Shown here: positions 30,822 to 39,779 of the stretch, piece by piece | How positions within the stretch are numbered: the first letter of the stretch is position 1 | Layout: each line of letters opens with the position of its first letter | Origin: an uncultured Methylophaga sp. | Lineage (GTDB): Bacteria > Pseudomonadota > Gammaproteobacteria > Nitrosococcales > Methylophagaceae | Length of the DNA: 64,000 bases | Assembly: GCA_963975785.1 (NCBI GenBank) | Contig: CAXBIM010000006.1 | Coordinates: 7,448-71,447, forward strand | Direction: 5' to 3' | Position numbers and translations under genes: made by a program | Notes under the pieces: generated by a model | What the model saw: the letters and a program-made list of their open reading frames with translations, nothing else | The model's database searches: none | Told to the model about the DNA's origin: nothing

Positions 30822-31649
30822 TTAAAATATAGTATCGATCATTTCATGCAATAGTTTTTTGGTGTCGTCATCATCCGTGATAGCATCAGCTATGCCACAT
30901 TTACAGGCTAAATTAGCTTCAAAACCACGATAAATGAGCTTTGCTGTATGTACCAGCAAACGGGTACTCGCGCCTTCTTCTAGGCCATTGCCTACTAAGT
31001 TTCGGGTCAGATTAGCTAATTTAACAAGATGTTTGCATGTTTGTATGGGGAGTTTCGACTCTTCATGAACGATGGTGCTTTCAATTTCTTCATTAGGATA
31101 GTTGAAATCAATAGCGATGAAACGTTGCCTTGTACTGGGTTTTAGATCTTTAACCGCACTTTGATAGCCGGGGTTGTAAGACATTGTTAGACAAAAGTCA
31201 GGGTCGGCTTGTATCAGTTGACCCAGCTTTTCAAGAGGCAGTATTCTTCTATCATCACATAGCGGATGAATAACGACAGTTGTATCTTTTCGAGCTTCAA
31301 CGATCTCATCTAAATAGCAAATACAACCATTTCTAACAGCTGTGGTTAATGGTCCATCTTGCCAAACAGTGCTGTTATCTTTTATTAAGTAACGTCCTAC
31401 TAGATCTGATGTACTTAAATCATCATGGCAAGAAACTGTGATAAGAGGCCTTTTATGAAACCAACTCATGTATTCCATGAAACGGGTTTTACCGCAGCCT
31501 GTTGGGCCTTTTAGTAGAATAGGAATCTTTTCAGATAAGGCCGCATTGAAAATTTCGACTTCATTAGACGAAGGCAAGTAGTAAGGCTCATTCTGGATAA
31601 AATATTCAGAATTATTGATGATTTTATTGTGTTTATTCATAGATGTCAT
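30822..31649 (-). CDS. NorQ/CbbQ/NirQ-type MoxR AAA+ ATPase
   Basis: Walker A ILLKGPTGCGKTRF, Walker B CYLDEIVE, 275 aa. Its start overlaps the stop of the upstream VWA gene. Confidence 0.85.
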   Translation of the reverse strand: MTSMNKHNKIINNSEYFIQNEPYYLPSSNEVEIFNAALSEKIPILLKGPTGCGKTRFMEYMSWFHKRPLITVSCHDDLSTSDLVGRYLIKDNSTVWQDGPLTTAVRNGCICYLDEIVEARKDTTVVIHPLCDDRRILPLEKLGQLIQADPDFCLTMSYNPGYQSAVKDLKPSTRQRFIAIDFNYPNEEIESTIVHEESKLPIQTCKHLVKLANLTRNLVGNGLEEGASTRLLVHTAKLIYRGFEANLACKCGIADAITDDDDTKKLLHEMIDTIF

Positions 31650-33739
31650 AACGTTAATTGCTTATAAATTGTAGAAATTTGAATAGGTAACATTGAAATA
31701 TCAGAAATTAATTTGTAATTATTTTTTCCGATCATATGAGGCAAATAGTCTATGCACTCTCGATCAAAGGTTAATACGAAGGGATTAAGCGAAAGCGCTT
31801 TTGCTTCATTGAATGCACGCCGCGTATCTTCAATCCCATAATGACCACGATAACTATCGATATCATCTGGCTTACCATCTGTCAGCACAAATAAAATTTT
31901 GGTCTTAGCGTCATTAGAGTTAAGAATTTTACTTAAATGGCGAATCGCGGTGCCCATGCGGGTATATTGTTTAGCCGTAAGACTGGCTATTTTTTGCTGT
32001 GTAGTCGCACTATAGTTTTCATTAAATCGTTTAACAGGGTAAATATCACACTGCTCACGGCCTGATCCAGAAAAGGCGTAGATAGCATATTGATCGTTTA
32101 ATTTTGATAGTGTGCGTGATAAGAGTTCGATAGATTGTTGAATTATTTCATTTTTCCAACCAGCCGTTGAACCACTAATGTCAACGGCGAACATAATGGC
32201 AATACTACGACTATTTTTATTATTTCTGATATATATATTTTGAAAATCGTCTGCATGTTGTGTTTTATTTGATTTTGCGTGCACCCAAGCGTCGATATCA
32301 ATATCATCACCATCACTCTGATAGCGGATAAGGCGCTGACTATTCATGATCATATCCAAGGTTTTTTTTATCCGGTATTCAGCGGATCGTAAATCAACAT
32401 CGCCTAATGCCAATTTTTCGTTGGTGTTAGGAGTAATTGAAATTTCTTCGACACGGCACCAATCATGACGGTACTGTTGGAGTGAGGTATCCCATTCTGG
32501 ATATAGATATACGTTTTTTTGGTTTTTATGATTTTGGAGTTTTTCATGCTCATTATGATGTTTAACTAGCACTTCATCGAGTTGCTCCCAGATATCAGGA
32601 TATTGTTGCTCTAGACTAGAAAAGGAACTTGCGTTGGAACTATGCCTTAAAGAAATACGATCAGCATTTTTGTTATCGATATTATTTTTACTATCATCCT
32701 TCTGAAGTTCGTCATTGTTATTAAAAAGATTCATTAAAATAGAAGGTTGTGTCTGTTCCTCATACTGAAAATGCAATAGTTTTTCAGGTGAAAAATCGCA
32801 TTGATAAGGAAGTGGTTCACAAAGTGTAATCTCAGTATTGGCATGCTCAACAATTTCTAGACTATGAAAAACACTGGGTTGAGCATGACCTTTGAAAACA
32901 TGATGAGGATATGGGGCAAGTTCTAACTTGTTGTGTAGATAAAGGATGTTATTCCAGATGCCTGGAAACTCATGCTTCAGATAATGATTGATTCTTAACG
33001 TCTCTATAGTACTGAAGTGATCTAGAAAATGATCATCATTAGTATGAATATCTTGTTTAATACGCTCTATGGCTAGGCCCGTATCACACTCAAGTTGCCC
33101 TAGAAGCTGAAAAATAATCACTTTAAACACTAAGTAATTATCAGCGAAATCATCAAATATGCTAATAGTTATGGGTAGGAATAGCTGCTTACCATCTGTA
33201 TATGCCTGTTGCTTGTCATTGGTATTAATAGGCAGGACTGTAAGTGATTGCCCTGAGATGGTGGAAGCAAGTTTCTCTAAGATTTCTGATACCTCAGAAA
33301 ACTCTGCCGCAGATGTATCCAATTGTGAAATAAAGTCATGGTAGTTATTAATTAGTGCGTCAGCGTTAGCGAATTCTTTATTAACTAATGCTTGTTTAAT
33401 TTGAGAAATCCAAGACTGATTATCTATGCTTTTCATTAAACTCAATGCAGGCGCGTAAATCCACAGTATCGAATAAGCATGAGTCACAGAAAGATCAGCA
33501 AGATCTGCAAGTTGAATCAGAAACTCTGACTGTAAGGAGTGGCTGAGAGCTGCTAACTCAGTGACGGGCTCAATAATATTTCGAGTATCAACGCCATCAA
33601 GTATCAATTCAATACGAATCTTTAGCTCAGTTGTACTCATGCCGCCACAAGAGCCCGTTTGCTTTGATTCTAGTGAGACGGTTTTCTTGATTCGTTTTTG
33701 TTCCAACCAGGTTGTCAGCCTTGAACTAATGGAATTCAT
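31646..33739 (-). CDS. NorD/CbbO-like von Willebrand factor A protein
   Basis: C-terminal VWA with MIDAS DISGS. The YPEWD...YRHDWCRVEE motif is typical of NorD-type proteins. 697 aa. Confidence 0.8.
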   Translation of the reverse strand: MNSISSRLTTWLEQKRIKKTVSLESKQTGSCGGMSTTELKIRIELILDGVDTRNIIEPVTELAALSHSLQSEFLIQLADLADLSVTHAYSILWIYAPALSLMKSIDNQSWISQIKQALVNKEFANADALINNYHDFISQLDTSAAEFSEVSEILEKLASTISGQSLTVLPINTNDKQQAYTDGKQLFLPITISIFDDFADNYLVFKVIIFQLLGQLECDTGLAIERIKQDIHTNDDHFLDHFSTIETLRINHYLKHEFPGIWNNILYLHNKLELAPYPHHVFKGHAQPSVFHSLEIVEHANTEITLCEPLPYQCDFSPEKLLHFQYEEQTQPSILMNLFNNNDELQKDDSKNNIDNKNADRISLRHSSNASSFSSLEQQYPDIWEQLDEVLVKHHNEHEKLQNHKNQKNVYLYPEWDTSLQQYRHDWCRVEEISITPNTNEKLALGDVDLRSAEYRIKKTLDMIMNSQRLIRYQSDGDDIDIDAWVHAKSNKTQHADDFQNIYIRNNKNSRSIAIMFAVDISGSTAGWKNEIIQQSIELLSRTLSKLNDQYAIYAFSGSGREQCDIYPVKRFNENYSATTQQKIASLTAKQYTRMGTAIRHLSKILNSNDAKTKILFVLTDGKPDDIDSYRGHYGIEDTRRAFNEAKALSLNPFVLTFDRECIDYLPHMIGKNNYKLISDISMLPIQISTIYKQLTL

Positions 33740-33901
33740 TAGGAAAATCCCGTGAAAAATATTCTTACAAAGGATTCTAGAGCAGTGTGCTGAGTAAACG
33801 TTATTAGTATTTGTACTATGAACAATAAAGGGTAAATCAGGGTAATGGTGTTTATAAATAAGGGATTAGTCGAAGTTTGCAGAAGAGAAAGGTTTATGTG
33901 T

Positions 33902-39262: not shown

Positions 39263-39284
39263 AAGAAGCAAATAGGAAATTTAT

Positions 39285-39779
39285 ATGAAAACATTAATTA
39301 AAACTATAGCTATCGCAGGTATTTTGAGCACCTCATTCGCGACAGTAAATGTAATGGCTGTAGAAACAAAAGCAGTCGCAGTAGTACCAGCTGCTCAATC
39401 TCTTTATGATCGTATCGGTGGTGAAGTGGTCTCAAGAGCGATAGTCGAAGATATCTGGACTAACCATTCTAATAACCCAATAGTAAAAGGCCGCTTCGGT
39501 AACAGTGATCCTGAATATGTTAAACAACGTGTCTTTGAAATATTCGCTGCAGCAACAGGTGGTGATGTTGAGTATAAAGGTATGGATCTAGCTGAAAGAC
39601 ATAGCAATATGAATGTCAGCGAAATGGAGTTTAACGCAGCTATTGATGACATTATGGCTGCAATGACAAAAAACAACATTGCACAAAAAGAAAAAGACGA
39701 AGTATTAGTTATTTTATGGTCAGTACGACCTGCAATTGTTAACCGATTTATAACGACAGAAGCTTTAACAAAAAAATAG
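39285..39779 (+). CDS. truncated globin with N-terminal signal peptide (exported)
   Basis: MKTLIKTIAIAGILSTSFATVNVMA is followed by a globin core paralogous to 35296..35658 (LYDRIGGE..., LAERHSNMNVSEMEF). Confidence 0.75.
   Translation: MKTLIKTIAIAGILSTSFATVNVMAVETKAVAVVPAAQSLYDRIGGEVVSRAIVEDIWTNHSNNPIVKGRFGNSDPEYVKQRVFEIFAAATGGDVEYKGMDLAERHSNMNVSEMEFNAAIDDIMAAMTKNNIAQKEKDEVLVILWSVRPAIVNRFITTEALTKK

What the first reader, a model, noticed from the sequence alone, without database searches (positions are those of the whole stretch)
30822..39779. AlkB/XylM-type membrane di-iron oxygenase operon coupled to a NorQ/NorD pair, two truncated globins and a TodX/FadL channel: candidate undescribed oxygenase system
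Seen in sequence: 34044..35225 carries every AlkB-family signature (HELAH, HVYNHH, NYMEHYG, GDHHD, DPATSPRGRSIY), but the window has no rubredoxin or rubredoxin reductase. The operon instead encodes a 59-aa CxHxxxC..CP ferredoxin-like ORF missed by the track (35679..35858), a XylA/MmoC-type [2Fe-2S]-FNR reductase and a TodX/FadL/XylN-type outer-membrane channel. It also encodes one cytoplasmic and one signal-peptide-bearing truncated globin, a divergent GST-fold protein and a 71-aa 2-TM protein. A NorQ (MoxR AAA+) / NorD (VWA, DISGS MIDAS) pair is transcribed divergently from the same approx 300-bp control region, and no norC or norB is in the window. Established knowledge: XylMA plus XylN is a methyl-group hydroxylase with a dedicated uptake channel. 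NorQ/NorD are needed to insert the non-haem FeB into cNOR. CbbQ/CbbO and CoxD/CoxE are analogous AAA+/VWA remodelers of metalloenzymes. Inference: here the NorQD pair matures or reactivates the membrane di-iron centre (or the globins), a pairing I am not aware of for AlkB-family enzymes. Hypothesis A follows from the context: methanethiol oxidase, SQR, PDO and Sox sit on the same island and share a promoter box. The substrate would be a volatile methylated sulfur compound, for example DMS converted to methanethiol plus formaldehyde by methyl hydroxylation. Hypothesis B is NO or nitro-compound chemistry at a di-iron site, suggested by the globins, NorQD and the downstream nitronate monooxygenase.
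Basis: partly seen in the sequence, partly recalled or inferred. Interest (0 to 1): 0.85.

Follow-up and report, generated by a model that had tools for sequence, protein, structure and literature searches.

The report
Candidate marine dimethylsulfide monooxygenase operon
A Methylophaga-type marine bacterium carries an unusual AlkB/XylM-family membrane iron oxygenase operon on a tRNA-flanked island beside its methanethiol- and sulfide-oxidising genes; the operon's counterparts in Methylophaga thiooxydans are switched on 30- to 140-fold by dimethylsulfide, making it the best candidate so far for the missing enzyme that starts breakdown of this climate-relevant gas.

Summary
The AlkB-like protein has an AlkB fold (TM 0.72-0.74). 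It belongs to a tight, isolated clade: only 28-35% identical to XylM/AlkB, with an invariant Gln replacing the first His of the third histidine box. Its core partners (Fer4_19 ferredoxin, Cys-type GST-like protein, XylA-type reductase, small TM protein, often a TrHbN-2 globin and a TodX channel) recur in about 45 loci. NorQ/NorD are frequent but not universal.

The decisive evidence is published data from M. thiooxydans DMS010. The orthologous genes were 136x (hydroxylase), 52x (reductase) and 29x (secreted globin) higher on DMS than on methanol, and the SCO4226-like operon protein was 9x up (sequence-verified). The authors read the "desaturase" as lipid repair, and the primary DMS enzyme is still called unidentified in 2022-2026 papers.

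A palindromic box shared with the sox and mtoX-region promoters and conserved across genomes, co-location with mtoX on at least 9 contigs, and restriction to the two mtoX-bearing Methylophaga species all support Hypothesis A (DMS -> methanethiol + formaldehyde). Hypothesis B (NO chemistry) is not supported. No biochemical test exists.

The parts
3114..3190 (+). tRNA-Pro(GGG). Its 3' part plus downstream bases (3139-3206) is the attachment-site sequence that is repeated twice downstream.
   Evidence: ARAGORN, Rfam, repeat mapping.
3274..4269 (-). Phage-type integrase of the first of two tandemly integrated elements (element A, 3.2-12.4 kb).
   Evidence: Pfam Phage_integrase.
12374..12446 (+). 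Direct repeat of the tRNA-Pro 3' end (62/73 identical). Left border of element B, the sulfur/DMS island.
13700..13716 (+). Regulatory box GGGATAAATACGTATTT, 87 bp upstream of soxC.
   Evidence: exact match to the pattern; 4 exact hits against 0.25 expected.
13787..21087 (+). Sox genes: SoxC, SoxD-type cytochrome, cytochrome c, SoxY, (SoxZ), SoxA, a rhodanese and SoxB.
   Evidence: Pfam.
21248..25992 (-). SulP permease, sulfide:quinone reductase, persulfide dioxygenase-rhodanese fusion, peroxiredoxin.
   Evidence: Pfam. The M. thiooxydans sqrA and pdo were DMS-induced.
26008..29460 (-). SCO1/SenC-MauG (di-haem peroxidase) fusion and methanethiol oxidase MtoX.
   Evidence: Pfam. NCBIfam MtoX equivalog, 717 bits against a cut-off of 650.
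29866..29882 (+). Regulatory box GGAAGATATACGTATAT in the mtoX / hypA intergenic region, 95 bp upstream of hypA. A further ATACGTAT core lies at 29668, 208 bp upstream of mtoX.
29961..30802 (+). Two paralogous 134/135-aa proteins with no family assignment, conserved next to norQ in Methylophaga-type loci.
30822..31649 (-). NorQ/CbbQ-type MoxR AAA+ ATPase.
   Evidence: AAA_5 + CbbQ_C. 321-328 bits to solved NorQ and CbbQ.
31646..33739 (-). NorD-like VWA protein (MIDAS DISGS). Only residues 411-695 resemble true NorD.
33903..33919 (+). Regulatory box GGGATATATACGTATTT, 141 bp upstream of the hydroxylase gene. It is conserved at -123 to -151 in 12 other genomes.
34044..35225 (+). AlkB/XylM-family membrane di-iron hydroxylase of a distinct clade (Gln308 in place of the first His of box 3). 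Proposed DMS methyl-hydroxylase.
   Evidence: The orthologue MDMS009_226 gave 1359 vs 10 on DMS vs methanol.
35296..35658 (+). Cytoplasmic TrHbN-2 truncated globin (Phe24 B10, His27 B13, Tyr37 CD1, Lys48 E10, His72 F8).
35679..35858 (+). 59-aa Fer4_19 mono-cluster ferredoxin (Cys10, Cys16, Cys50-Pro).
35907..36593 (+). GST-fold protein with a nearly invariant Cys19 at the catalytic position (Cys-type GST).
36633..37718 (+). XylA-type [2Fe-2S]-FAD-NAD(H) reductase.
   Evidence: 42% identical to pWW0 XylA. The orthologue MDMS009_61 gave 618 vs 12.
37756..37971 (+). 71-aa protein with two hydrophobic segments, conserved directly after the reductase.
38027..39262 (+). TodX/FadL-family outer-membrane channel.
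39285..39779 (+). Signal-peptide-bearing TrHbN-2 globin (Trp B10, His B13, Phe CD1, Arg E10).
   Evidence: The orthologue MDMS009_199 gave 601 vs 21.
39911..40186 (+). SCO4226-like small protein.
   Evidence: The orthologue MDMS009_82 was 9.3x up at protein level on DMS, sequence-verified.
40208..42554 (+). NMO-family FMN oxidoreductase, followed by a conserved 396-aa protein with a weak class-I methyltransferase-like C-terminal half.
42725..42741 (+). Regulatory box GGTAAATATACGTATTT upstream of the hydrolase/ACAD/kinase/regulator unit.
   Evidence: The equivalent site in L077 is shown.
43056..48029 (+). MetX-like alpha/beta hydrolase (PRK07581 subfamily), acyl-CoA-dehydrogenase-fold protein, PAS histidine kinase and LuxR-type response regulator. 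This module travels with the hydroxylase cluster in other genomes.
48345..49807 (+). 216-aa protein without a family plus a second GST-like protein. Their homologues follow the core cluster directly in about 15 distant loci.
49963..50030 (+). Second direct repeat of the tRNA-Pro 3' end (60/68 identical). Right border of element B.

Best explanation
The operon encodes a three-component, membrane-bound monooxygenase of the AlkB/XylM family that carries out the first step of aerobic DMS catabolism in Methylophaga-type bacteria.

Proposed path (inferred unless marked shown). DMS crosses the outer membrane through the TodX/FadL-type channel. NADH electrons pass through the XylA-type [2Fe-2S]-FAD reductase, possibly by way of the 59-aa ferredoxin, to the di-iron hydroxylase. 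The hydroxylase hydroxylates one methyl group. The resulting hemithioacetal, CH3-S-CH2OH, falls apart into methanethiol and formaldehyde.

Methanethiol is then oxidised by the neighbouring periplasmic MtoX. The products are handled by the peroxiredoxin/MauG-type peroxidase, SQR, PDO-rhodanese and Sox genes of the same island. The Cys-type GST-like proteins (and Gfa/GshA in Cocleimonas) probably deal with formaldehyde or thiol adducts.

NorQ/NorD most likely load or reload iron into the hydroxylase, whose metal site has Gln in place of one His ligand. The two low-O2-affinity TrHbN-2 globins probably handle O2 or peroxide on either side of the inner membrane. The PAS kinase/LuxR regulator pair is the likely reader of the shared palindromic box.

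Shown: the gene content, the fold, the clade-specific Gln, conservation of the neighbourhood, the shared conserved box, and DMS induction of the orthologues. Inferred: the substrate, the product, and the roles of the accessory proteins.
For: (1) In M. thiooxydans DMS010 the orthologous locus L077 (92% identical hydroxylase) encodes EEF81234, EEF81069 and EEF81207. A single offset of 81008 maps these accessions to MDMS009_226, _61 and _199. Those are exactly the 'fatty acid desaturase domain', 'oxidoreductase NAD-binding' and 'glbN' transcripts with 1359/10, 618/12 and 601/21 expression on DMS/methanol.
(2) The printed sequence of MDMS009_82 (protein ratio 9.33) is identical to the SCO4226-like ORF of L077.
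(3) The mtoX on the same contig is MDMS009_211 (4064/20).
(4) These organisms have no dmoA or ddh, and the primary DMS enzyme is stated to be missing or unidentified. DmoA is still the only DMS->MeSH enzyme listed in 2026.
(5) A shared box lies upstream of soxC, in the mtoX region, upstream of the hydroxylase gene and upstream of the ACAD/kinase unit (4 exact hits against 0.25 expected). It is conserved at -123 to -151 in 12 genomes and is present in L077.
(6) mtoX shares a contig with the hydroxylase or norD gene in at least 9 assemblies.
(7) Among named Methylophaga species, only M. thiooxydans and M. sulfidovorans appear among the 80 best loci. The paper reports these two as the only ones of six genomes with mtoX.
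(8) AlkB fold with TM 0.72-0.74. XylA-like reductase, 42% identical. TodX-family channel.
(9) Gfa and gshA sit beside NorDQ in the Cocleimonas version, and a Cys-type GST is conserved in the core. Both fit a formaldehyde-releasing reaction.
(10) From established knowledge: AlkB and XylM hydroxylate terminal methyl groups, and AlkB is known to O-demethylate methyl ethers.
Against: There is no biochemical or genetic test of any clade member. Boden et al. 2010, as cited, found no DMS monooxygenase activity in extracts of DMS-grown cells and proposed a methyltransferase; a labile membrane three-component system could have been missed, but that is an excuse and not evidence. Thioethers are more easily S-oxygenated than C-hydroxylated, so DMSO could be the product. 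Induction on DMS could be indirect, for example a response to MeSH, sulfide or H2O2. The clade is widespread in sulfur oxidisers that are not known to use DMS, often with 2-3 paralogues per genome and some solitary copies. Co-occurrence with mtoX could not be tested for the 66-71% branch. The mapping of three locus tags rests on accession arithmetic plus names. NorQD are absent from many clade members that also have Gln308.
Confidence: 0.6

Rival explanations
1. The enzyme acts on DMS or a related thioether but oxygenates the sulfur (DMS -> DMSO/DMSO2), or acts on another organosulfur intermediate, rather than cleaving off a methyl group.
For: The same induction and linkage data apply. From established knowledge, AlkB sulfoxidises methyl thioethers. 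An ACAD-fold protein, the fold of the newly described DMS/DMSO oxygenases Dms1-3, belongs to the conserved neighbourhood.
Against: M. thiooxydans uses DMS as a carbon source with methanethiol as intermediate, and MtoX is the most strongly induced enzyme. DMSO would be a dead end for carbon. The linkage to Gfa/gshA and GST-like proteins points to formaldehyde. The ACAD scores best against FadE16-type models, far below their cut-offs, and only weakly against SfnB/DszC.
Confidence: 0.12
2. It demethylates or hydroxylates a different small methylated or hydrophobic compound that releases formaldehyde (for example another methyl thioether, a methylated amine or ether, or a short alkane), and DMS is only a gratuitous inducer or one of several substrates.
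For: The clade is widespread in sulfur oxidisers, sponge symbionts and Rhodobiaceae, with several paralogues per genome. Substrate range cannot be read from sequence. AlkB-family enzymes are often promiscuous (established knowledge).
Against: Induction was seen in pure culture with DMS as sole substrate compared with methanol. The operon shares a regulon with the mtoX region and sox. It is restricted to the mtoX-bearing Methylophaga species.
Confidence: 0.12
3. It is an ordinary hydrocarbon hydroxylase (alkane or methyl-aromatic, as annotated: 'alkane 1-monooxygenase'), reflecting the reported involvement of Methylophaga in oil degradation.
For: Database names. AlkB fold. An architecture like XylM/XylA/XylN. 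SIP work implicating Methylophaga in hexadecane degradation is cited.
Against: Only 25-35% identical to characterised AlkB/XylM, and an isolated clade. No alcohol or aldehyde dehydrogenase or acyl-CoA synthetase genes of an alkane pathway lie in the operon. It was induced by DMS with no hydrocarbon present. It sits on a sulfur-oxidation island.
Confidence: 0.06
4. It is a membrane-lipid desaturase induced to repair H2O2 damage during methanethiol oxidation (the reading of Kroeber and Schaefer 2019).
For: The Pfam family is FA_desaturase. The authors' argument is quoted.
Against: The sequence and fold match AlkB, not acyl-lipid desaturases. It has a dedicated XylA-type reductase, a ferredoxin and an outer-membrane hydrophobic-substrate channel, which lipid desaturation does not need.
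Confidence: 0.04
5. One reading: NO or nitro-compound chemistry at the di-iron site, served by the globins, NorQD and the nitronate monooxygenase.
For: NorQ/NorD-type genes, group-1 truncated globins and an NMO-family gene are present.
Against: There are no nor structural genes. The globins are TrHbN-2 with hydrophobic B10/E7/E11; their closest solved relative cannot bind O2 reversibly. The NorD N-terminal 410 residues are unrelated to true NorD. NMO is a broad FMN family, and the best NCBIfam hit is FabK-like, far below its cut-off. The operon is induced by DMS.
Confidence: 0.03

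Closest known systems
Xylene monooxygenase XylM/XylA with the XylN channel (TOL plasmid pWW0)
   Same: A membrane AlkB-family hydroxylase that takes electrons directly from a fused [2Fe-2S]-FAD-NADH reductase (42% identical to XylA), with a FadL/TodX-family outer-membrane channel in the same operon. It hydroxylates a methyl group.
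   Different: The hydroxylase is only 28% identical. It has Gln instead of His at the first position of box 3. The channel is only distantly related to XylN. It has extra partners (Fer4_19 ferredoxin, Cys-GST, small TM protein, globins, NorQD). It is induced by DMS rather than by aromatics.
Alkane hydroxylase AlkB with rubredoxin AlkG and reductase AlkT (solved: 8f6t, 8sbb)
   Same: The same fold (TM 0.72-0.74). Eight of the nine His ligand positions are conserved, and the NYxEHYG motif is present.
   Different: No rubredoxin or rubredoxin reductase. 23-35% identity. The Gln308 substitution. No alkane-pathway genes nearby.
DMS monooxygenase DmoA/DmoB of Hyphomicrobium sulfonivorans
   Same: The proposed overall reaction is the same (DMS + NADH + O2 -> methanethiol + formaldehyde), as is the position in the pathway upstream of MtoX.
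   Different: DmoA is a soluble FMNH2-dependent two-component enzyme, unrelated in sequence, fold and cofactor. Methylophaga genomes lack it.
NorQ/NorD, the chaperone that inserts the non-haem FeB into cNOR
   Same: A MoxR AAA+ ATPase with a CbbQ_C domain (321 bits to solved NorQ) and a VWA partner with a MIDAS motif and a finger/VWA module like NorD. The mechanism known for cNOR is ATP-driven remodelling of a membrane protein to insert iron into a His-rich site.
   Different: No norCB genes. The N-terminal 410 residues of the NorD-like protein have no similarity to NorD. It forms a separate lineage found next to the hydroxylase/ACAD/kinase clusters. NorQ is equally close to the Rubisco activase CbbQ. 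The client is not known.
Shewanella benthica truncated haemoglobin N (SbHbN, TrHbN-2; 7TT9, 8UGZ)
   Same: About 50% identity, E around 1e-30 and 1e-26. The distal pocket has the same character: hydrophobic B10/E7/E11 with His at B13, and in the cytoplasmic copy Tyr at CD1.
   Different: E10 is Lys or Arg instead of Met. One copy carries a signal peptide. Both are embedded in an oxygenase operon. The function of SbHbN is itself unknown: it does not bind O2 reversibly and it reacts with peroxide.
Front-end fatty-acid desaturases with a QxxHH third histidine box
   Same: From established knowledge (not tested here): in these members of the same superfamily the first His of box 3 is likewise replaced by an essential Gln.
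   Different: They are cytochrome-b5-fused eukaryotic-type lipid desaturases. This clade has the AlkB fold, and none of 116 AlkB/XylM-like relatives shows the substitution.

Membership tests
AlkB/XylM membrane di-iron hydroxylases (Pfam FA_desaturase superfamily) | Sequence match to the family profile and to solved AlkB | tested here: met
   PF00487 at 3e-24. 8sbb at 1e-28 and 8f6t at 7e-26.
AlkB/XylM membrane di-iron hydroxylases (Pfam FA_desaturase superfamily) | AlkB fold | tested here: met
   AF2 model with pLDDT 82 and pTM 0.84. Foldseek TM 0.74 and 0.72 to 8f6t and 8sbb, with no other hit at E<0.1.
AlkB/XylM membrane di-iron hydroxylases (Pfam FA_desaturase superfamily) | Complete histidine boxes HxxxH, HxxxHH, HxxHH plus the His of NYxEHYG (nine ligand positions in AlkB) | tested here: not met
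   Eight positions are conserved (H140, H144, H169, H173, H174, H274, H311, H312). The first His of box 3 is Gln308 in all clade members examined and His in all 116 outgroup sequences, XylM and AlkB included. I therefore file it as a divergent variant, not a typical member.
AlkB-type alkane hydroxylase system | Rubredoxin and rubredoxin reductase as electron donors | tested here: not met
   No rubredoxin-like ORF in any frame. The partners are Fer4_19 and a Fer2-FNR reductase.
XylMA-type xylene monooxygenase system | Fused [2Fe-2S]-FAD-NAD reductase (XylA) encoded with the hydroxylase | tested here: met
   Fer2 + FAD_binding_6 + NAD_binding_1. 42% identical to XylA over 329 residues, E 7e-85.
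XylMA-type xylene monooxygenase system | Activity on methyl-substituted aromatics | not testable with these tools
   Needs an enzyme assay. The hydroxylase is only 28% identical to XylM.
DMS monooxygenase (functional class: DMS -> MeSH + HCHO) | Catalyses the reaction | not testable with these tools
   Only indirect evidence: DMS induction of the orthologues, the shared regulon and linkage to mtoX.
NorQ/CbbQ MoxR AAA+ ATPases | AAA_5 domain plus CbbQ_C domain, Walker A/B | tested here: met
   GPTGCGKT and YLDE are in the sequence. 321-328 bits to solved NorQ and CbbQ.
NorD (cNOR FeB-insertion partner) | C-terminal VWA domain with a DxSxS MIDAS motif | tested here: met
   VWA at 7.5e-10. DISGS...TDG in the sequence. 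Residues 411-695 align to solved NorD at 2.6e-37.
NorD (cNOR FeB-insertion partner) | NorD-type N-terminal domain and linker; encoded with norC/norB | tested here: not met
   Residues 1-410 match nothing in the PDB, the two solved NorD proteins included. No norC/norB in the window.
TrHbN-2 truncated haemoglobins | Bac_globin fold, proximal His F8, hydrophobic B10/E7/E11 | tested here: met
   Alignments to SbHbN, read with the residue assignments: Phe24/Val45/Val49/His72 in the first globin, Trp/Val/Val in the second.
Methanethiol oxidase MtoX (neighbouring gene 28054-29460) | Score above the NCBIfam equivalog cut-off | tested here: met
   NF052453 at 717 bits against a cut-off of 650.
tRNA-integrated genomic island | tRNA gene, adjacent integrase, direct repeats of the tRNA 3' end at the borders | tested here: met
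   Mobility itself was not tested. Element B has no integrase of its own.

The most novel reading that the evidence does not exclude
A 37.6-kb island bracketed by tRNA-derived repeats encodes the complete route from DMS to oxidised sulfur. Its first enzyme is a new branch of the AlkB family with a Gln-substituted di-iron site. That enzyme is the long-sought DMS-demethylating monooxygenase of marine Methylophaga and of many uncultured marine sulfur oxidisers. It is matured by a dedicated NorQ/NorD-type iron-insertion machine with a new client-recognition domain, and it is served by TrHbN-2 globins on both sides of the inner membrane. This would give these globins and this chaperone lineage their first physiological role outside cNOR and Rubisco.
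Probability: 0.3. Interest if true: 0.92.

Novelty: new variant of a known kind. Interest (0 to 1): 0.82.

Why it matters
DMS is the largest biogenic source of atmospheric sulfur, and most of it is consumed by marine bacteria before it escapes. Methylophaga and related Piscirickettsiaceae are the organisms repeatedly labelled in 13C-DMS probing experiments. The gene for their first catabolic step has nevertheless been missing since a methyltransferase was postulated in 2010, and surveys can only count dmoA, ddh, tmm and mtoX.

A concrete candidate with a diagnostic signature (AlkB fold plus RQ[G/A]DHH) would make the question testable by a single knockout or expression experiment. If confirmed, it would supply a new functional marker. 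Relatives at 67% identity or more are numerous in marine metagenomes, including Tara samples, and they are currently annotated as alkane hydroxylases or fatty-acid desaturases, which probably inflates estimates of hydrocarbon-degradation potential.

It would also extend AlkB-family chemistry to C-S bond cleavage by methyl hydroxylation. It would offer a second membrane client for NorQD-type metal-insertion chaperones, and give a physiological setting to the unexplained TrHbN-2 globins.

Tried and rejected
(1) I searched the paper's sequence supplement for peptides of the L077 proteins and found nothing, because that table lists only genes that were previously unannotated. The link was made instead through accession offsets and names, one printed sequence and an NCBI name carrying the locus tag.

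(2) Strand agreement between Table S6 and L077 was dropped as an argument. mtoX (MDMS009_211) and the hydroxylase gene (MDMS009_226) are both listed '-' although they lie on opposite strands.

(3) The first neighbourhood census required at least 50% query coverage and included fewer query genes. It wrongly suggested that NorD is confined to loci with at least 75% hydroxylase identity. The sensitive rerun and the Pfam-labelled contigs corrected this.

(4) ACAD-fold protein as a Dms1-3/DszC/SfnB-type sulfur oxygenase: the best matches are FadE16-type and lie far below their cut-offs, and SfnB/DszC score lower still. It remains unassigned.

(5) orf396: no Pfam hit at E<0.001. The profile gives only weak methyltransferase hits. 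The single-sequence model is unusable at pLDDT 36.

(7) Hypothesis B and the lipid-desaturase reading were considered and rejected for the reasons given under the rival explanations.

(8) The one-mismatch box hit inside the NMO gene (40593) was treated as chance.

Full report
OBSERVATION. norQ is AAA_5 + CbbQ_C. norD has a VWA domain with the MIDAS motif DISGS. 34044-35225 is FA_desaturase. There are two Bac_globin proteins, a 59-aa Fer4_19 ferredoxin, a GST-fold protein, a Fer2-FAD-NAD reductase and a Toluene_X channel. The 71-aa protein with two hydrophobic segments has no family. The window has no rubredoxin-like ORF in any frame and no nor structural genes. The upstream neighbours run, in order, SoxCD/Y(Z)/A/B, SulP, SQR, a PDO-rhodanese fusion, a peroxiredoxin, an SCO1-MauG fusion and MtoX. 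MtoX scores above the NCBIfam equivalog cut-off.

THE HYDROXYLASE. It matches solved AlkB at E=1e-28. An AlphaFold model (pLDDT 82, pTM 0.84) finds only the two AlkB cryo-EM structures in the PDB (TM 0.74 and 0.72). It is 28% identical to XylM of pWW0 and 25-35% identical to plasmid-borne AlkBs. An exhaustive search of 1.84 billion representatives clustered at 50% identity returned one full-length cluster at 618 bits, after which full-length relatives fell straight to 185 bits and 34% identity. The protein therefore belongs to a tight, isolated clade.

Eight of the nine AlkB metal-ligand positions are conserved. The first His of the third box is Gln308 (RQ[G/A]DHH) in every clade member examined, and it is His in all 116 nearest outgroup sequences, XylM and AlkB included. 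I recall the same QxxHH variant from front-end fatty-acid desaturases. That is memory, not a test made here.

NEIGHBOURHOOD. I compared 80 genomic loci from species-representative genomes plus several metagenome contigs.
- About 45 loci keep the hydroxylase gene followed by some or all of: globin, Fer4_19, GST-like protein, reductase and the small TM protein. TodX and an SCO4226-like protein are often present too, down to 66% hydroxylase identity.
- Hosts include Methylophaga, Thiothrix, Cocleimonas, Ca. Porisulfidus (sponge sulfur oxidisers) and Rhodobiaceae MAGs.
- Several genomes carry two or three paralogues, some of them solitary.
- NorQ/NorD lie within 10 kb in 12 loci, all with at least 76% hydroxylase identity. 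They appear again in L084 (68%) and on the Cocleimonas contig (71%). They are missing from many other loci.
- NorQ/NorD are physically attached to a module made of an ACAD-fold protein, a PAS histidine kinase and a LuxR-type regulator. That module travels with the cluster, either upstream or downstream. In the window it is 44267-48029.
- Homologues of window 48345-49807 (a 216-aa protein and a second GST-like protein) follow the core directly in about 15 distant loci.
The conserved unit therefore spans roughly 29.9-49.8 kb, which is larger than the finding's coordinates.

LINK TO DMS. The closest cultured carriers are M. thiooxydans DMS010 (92% identity, locus L077) and M. sulfidovorans (89%). 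No other named Methylophaga species is among the 80 best loci. The 2019 study reports these two as the only ones of six Methylophaga genomes with mtoX, and says that none has dmoA or ddh.

In that study's RNA-seq table, expression on DMS versus methanol was 1359 vs 10 for 'fatty acid desaturase domain protein' MDMS009_226, 618 vs 12 for 'oxidoreductase, NAD-binding' MDMS009_61, and 601 vs 21 for 'glbN' MDMS009_199. Alongside these were mtoX (17350 vs 37 and 4064 vs 20), pdo and sqrA.

The L077 hydroxylase, reductase and secreted globin are EEF81234, EEF81069 and EEF81207, with matching source names. One offset, 81008, converts all three accessions into exactly those locus tags. This mapping is an inference, but a tight one. 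Two links are direct. The printed sequence of MDMS009_82, 9.33-fold up at protein level, is identical to the SCO4226-like ORF of the L077 operon. NCBI names the mtoX on the same contig MDMS009_211.

The authors interpreted the 'desaturase' and its reductase as lipid repair. They stated that the primary DMS enzyme was missing and might be an unrecognised monooxygenase. A 2022 paper still calls the gene unidentified. Two 2026 papers list only DmoA for DMS to methanethiol.

REGULON. The pattern GGNANNNATACGTATWT occurs four times exactly in the window, against 0.25 expected, and 0 of 100 shuffles reach the observed count. The four sites are 87 bp upstream of soxC, in the mtoX/hypA intergenic region, 141 bp upstream of the hydroxylase gene, and upstream of the hydrolase/ACAD/kinase unit. 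The version TAGGGAT.T.TACGTAT sits 123-151 bp upstream of the hydroxylase gene in all 12 NorQD-bearing loci. The box recurs in L077 at the equivalent sites. The oxygenase operon is thus wired to the same control element as the methanethiol and sulfur oxidation genes. The conserved PAS kinase/LuxR pair is the obvious candidate reader, which is an inference.

This is a heuristic test.

ACCESSORY PROTEINS.
- Reductase: 42% identical to XylA over its full length.
- Channel: shares only the family with XylN.
- GST-like protein: has a nearly invariant Cys19 at the catalytic position.
- Cocleimonas neighbours: Gfa (glutathione-dependent formaldehyde-activating enzyme) and gshA sit beside NorD-NorQ, which fits a formaldehyde-releasing reaction.
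- Globins: both are about 50% identical to Shewanella benthica SbHbN, a TrHbN-2 globin with hydrophobic B10/E7/E11 and His B13. That protein does not bind O2 reversibly and reacts with peroxide. Neither globin has the Tyr B10/Gln E7/Gln E11 network of high-affinity, NO-dioxygenase-type globins.
- NorQ: scores equally against solved NorQ and CbbQ.
- NorD-like protein: resembles true NorD only in the finger/VWA module (residues 411-695). The N-terminal 410 residues, the region proposed to engage cNOR in the current NorQD model, match nothing. The lineage is discrete: 43-100% identity, then an abrupt drop. This fits a different client. The hydroxylase, a membrane protein with a His-rich iron site on the cytoplasmic face, is the most plausible client, but that is an inference.
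- orf396: a conserved protein with only weak methyltransferase-like signals. It remains unexplained.

ISLAND. The 3' part of tRNA-Pro (3139-3206) is repeated at 12374-12446 (62/73 identical) and at 49963-50030 (60/68 identical). An integrase follows the tRNA. The window therefore holds two tandem elements. The second, 37.6 kb long, carries exactly the Sox-to-GST gene set. Its right border coincides with the end of the conserved neighbourhood.

VERDICT. Hypothesis A is the best-supported explanation (confidence about 0.6 for DMS methyl hydroxylation giving methanethiol and formaldehyde). The main open alternatives are S-oxygenation and a different or broader substrate. A NorQD role in loading iron into the hydroxylase is plausible (about 0.35-0.4) but unproven, and it is not general to the clade. 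Hypothesis B is not supported. Nothing has been tested biochemically, and one negative enzyme assay from 2010 stands against the idea.

Noticed in passing
window 3114-4269, 12374-12446, 49963-50030: tRNA-Pro is followed by an integrase, and the tRNA 3' end is repeated twice downstream. This defines two tandem integrated elements: A (3.2-12.4 kb, with two KfrA_N proteins and an HNH-like ORF) and B (12.4-50.0 kb, the entire Sox/SQR/PDO/MtoX/NorQD/AlkB-like/ACAD/kinase/GST set). Element B has no integrase of its own.
   Followed up: yes
window 29961-30802: Two paralogous proteins of about 134 aa with no family assignment lie between mtoX and norQ, with a copy of the regulatory box 95 bp upstream. 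They are conserved in Methylophaga-type loci (L001, L002, L004, L013, L077).
   Followed up: partly
window 41364-42554: A conserved 396-aa operon member without a family. Its orthologues give only weak, scattered hits to class-I SAM methyltransferase models in the C-terminal half, while the highly conserved N-terminal 160 residues match nothing. The single-sequence structure model was unusable.
   Followed up: partly
window 39285-39779: This globin, presumably a b-type haem protein, carries an apparent Sec-type signal peptide (no twin-arginine motif), so it would have to acquire haem in the periplasm. This is the copy whose M. thiooxydans orthologue is listed as 29-fold induced on DMS.
   Followed up: partly
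window 48345-49807: A 216-aa protein with no family and a second GST-like protein lie outside the finding's coordinates. Their homologues directly follow the core hydroxylase cluster in about 15 distant loci (L016, L017, L021, L024, L027-29, L031, L033-36, L039).
   Followed up: partly
window 43056-44102: This alpha/beta hydrolase scores above the cut-off for the MetX-like subfamily PRK07581 (449 bits against 332), and a regulatory box lies upstream. A MetX-like acyltransferase next to a methanethiol-producing system might feed direct methionine synthesis from methanethiol. This is speculative.
   Followed up: no
L088 477-5912 (Cocleimonas contig CANLZW010000043.1): Gfa (glutathione-dependent formaldehyde-activating enzyme) and glutamate-cysteine ligase lie directly upstream of NorD-NorQ, on the same contig as the hydroxylase cluster (L016).
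   Followed up: partly
L009, L010, L011 (OX044353.1); L030, L038, L075 (OZ245760.1); L007/L090 with L014: Single genomes carry two or three paralogues of the Gln308-clade hydroxylase. Usually one sits in a full cluster and the others are solitary, for example inside an LPS-core biosynthesis region.
   Followed up: partly
window 26008-28014: A single 668-aa ORF fuses an SCO1/SenC copper-chaperone domain to a MauG/di-haem cytochrome c peroxidase, next to mtoX. The M. thiooxydans counterparts (annotated 'SCO1/MauG') were about 95-fold induced on DMS.
   Followed up: no
window 55224-56102: A MerR-family regulator followed by a MerC-type membrane protein lies just outside the island, with no other mer genes seen nearby.
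   Followed up: no
L077 4774-5697: M. thiooxydans has a LysR/CysB-like regulator between mtoX and the hypA/hypB pair that is absent from the window. It may be the DMS-induced 'cysB' MDMS009_120 (669 vs 11), but this was not verified.
   Followed up: no
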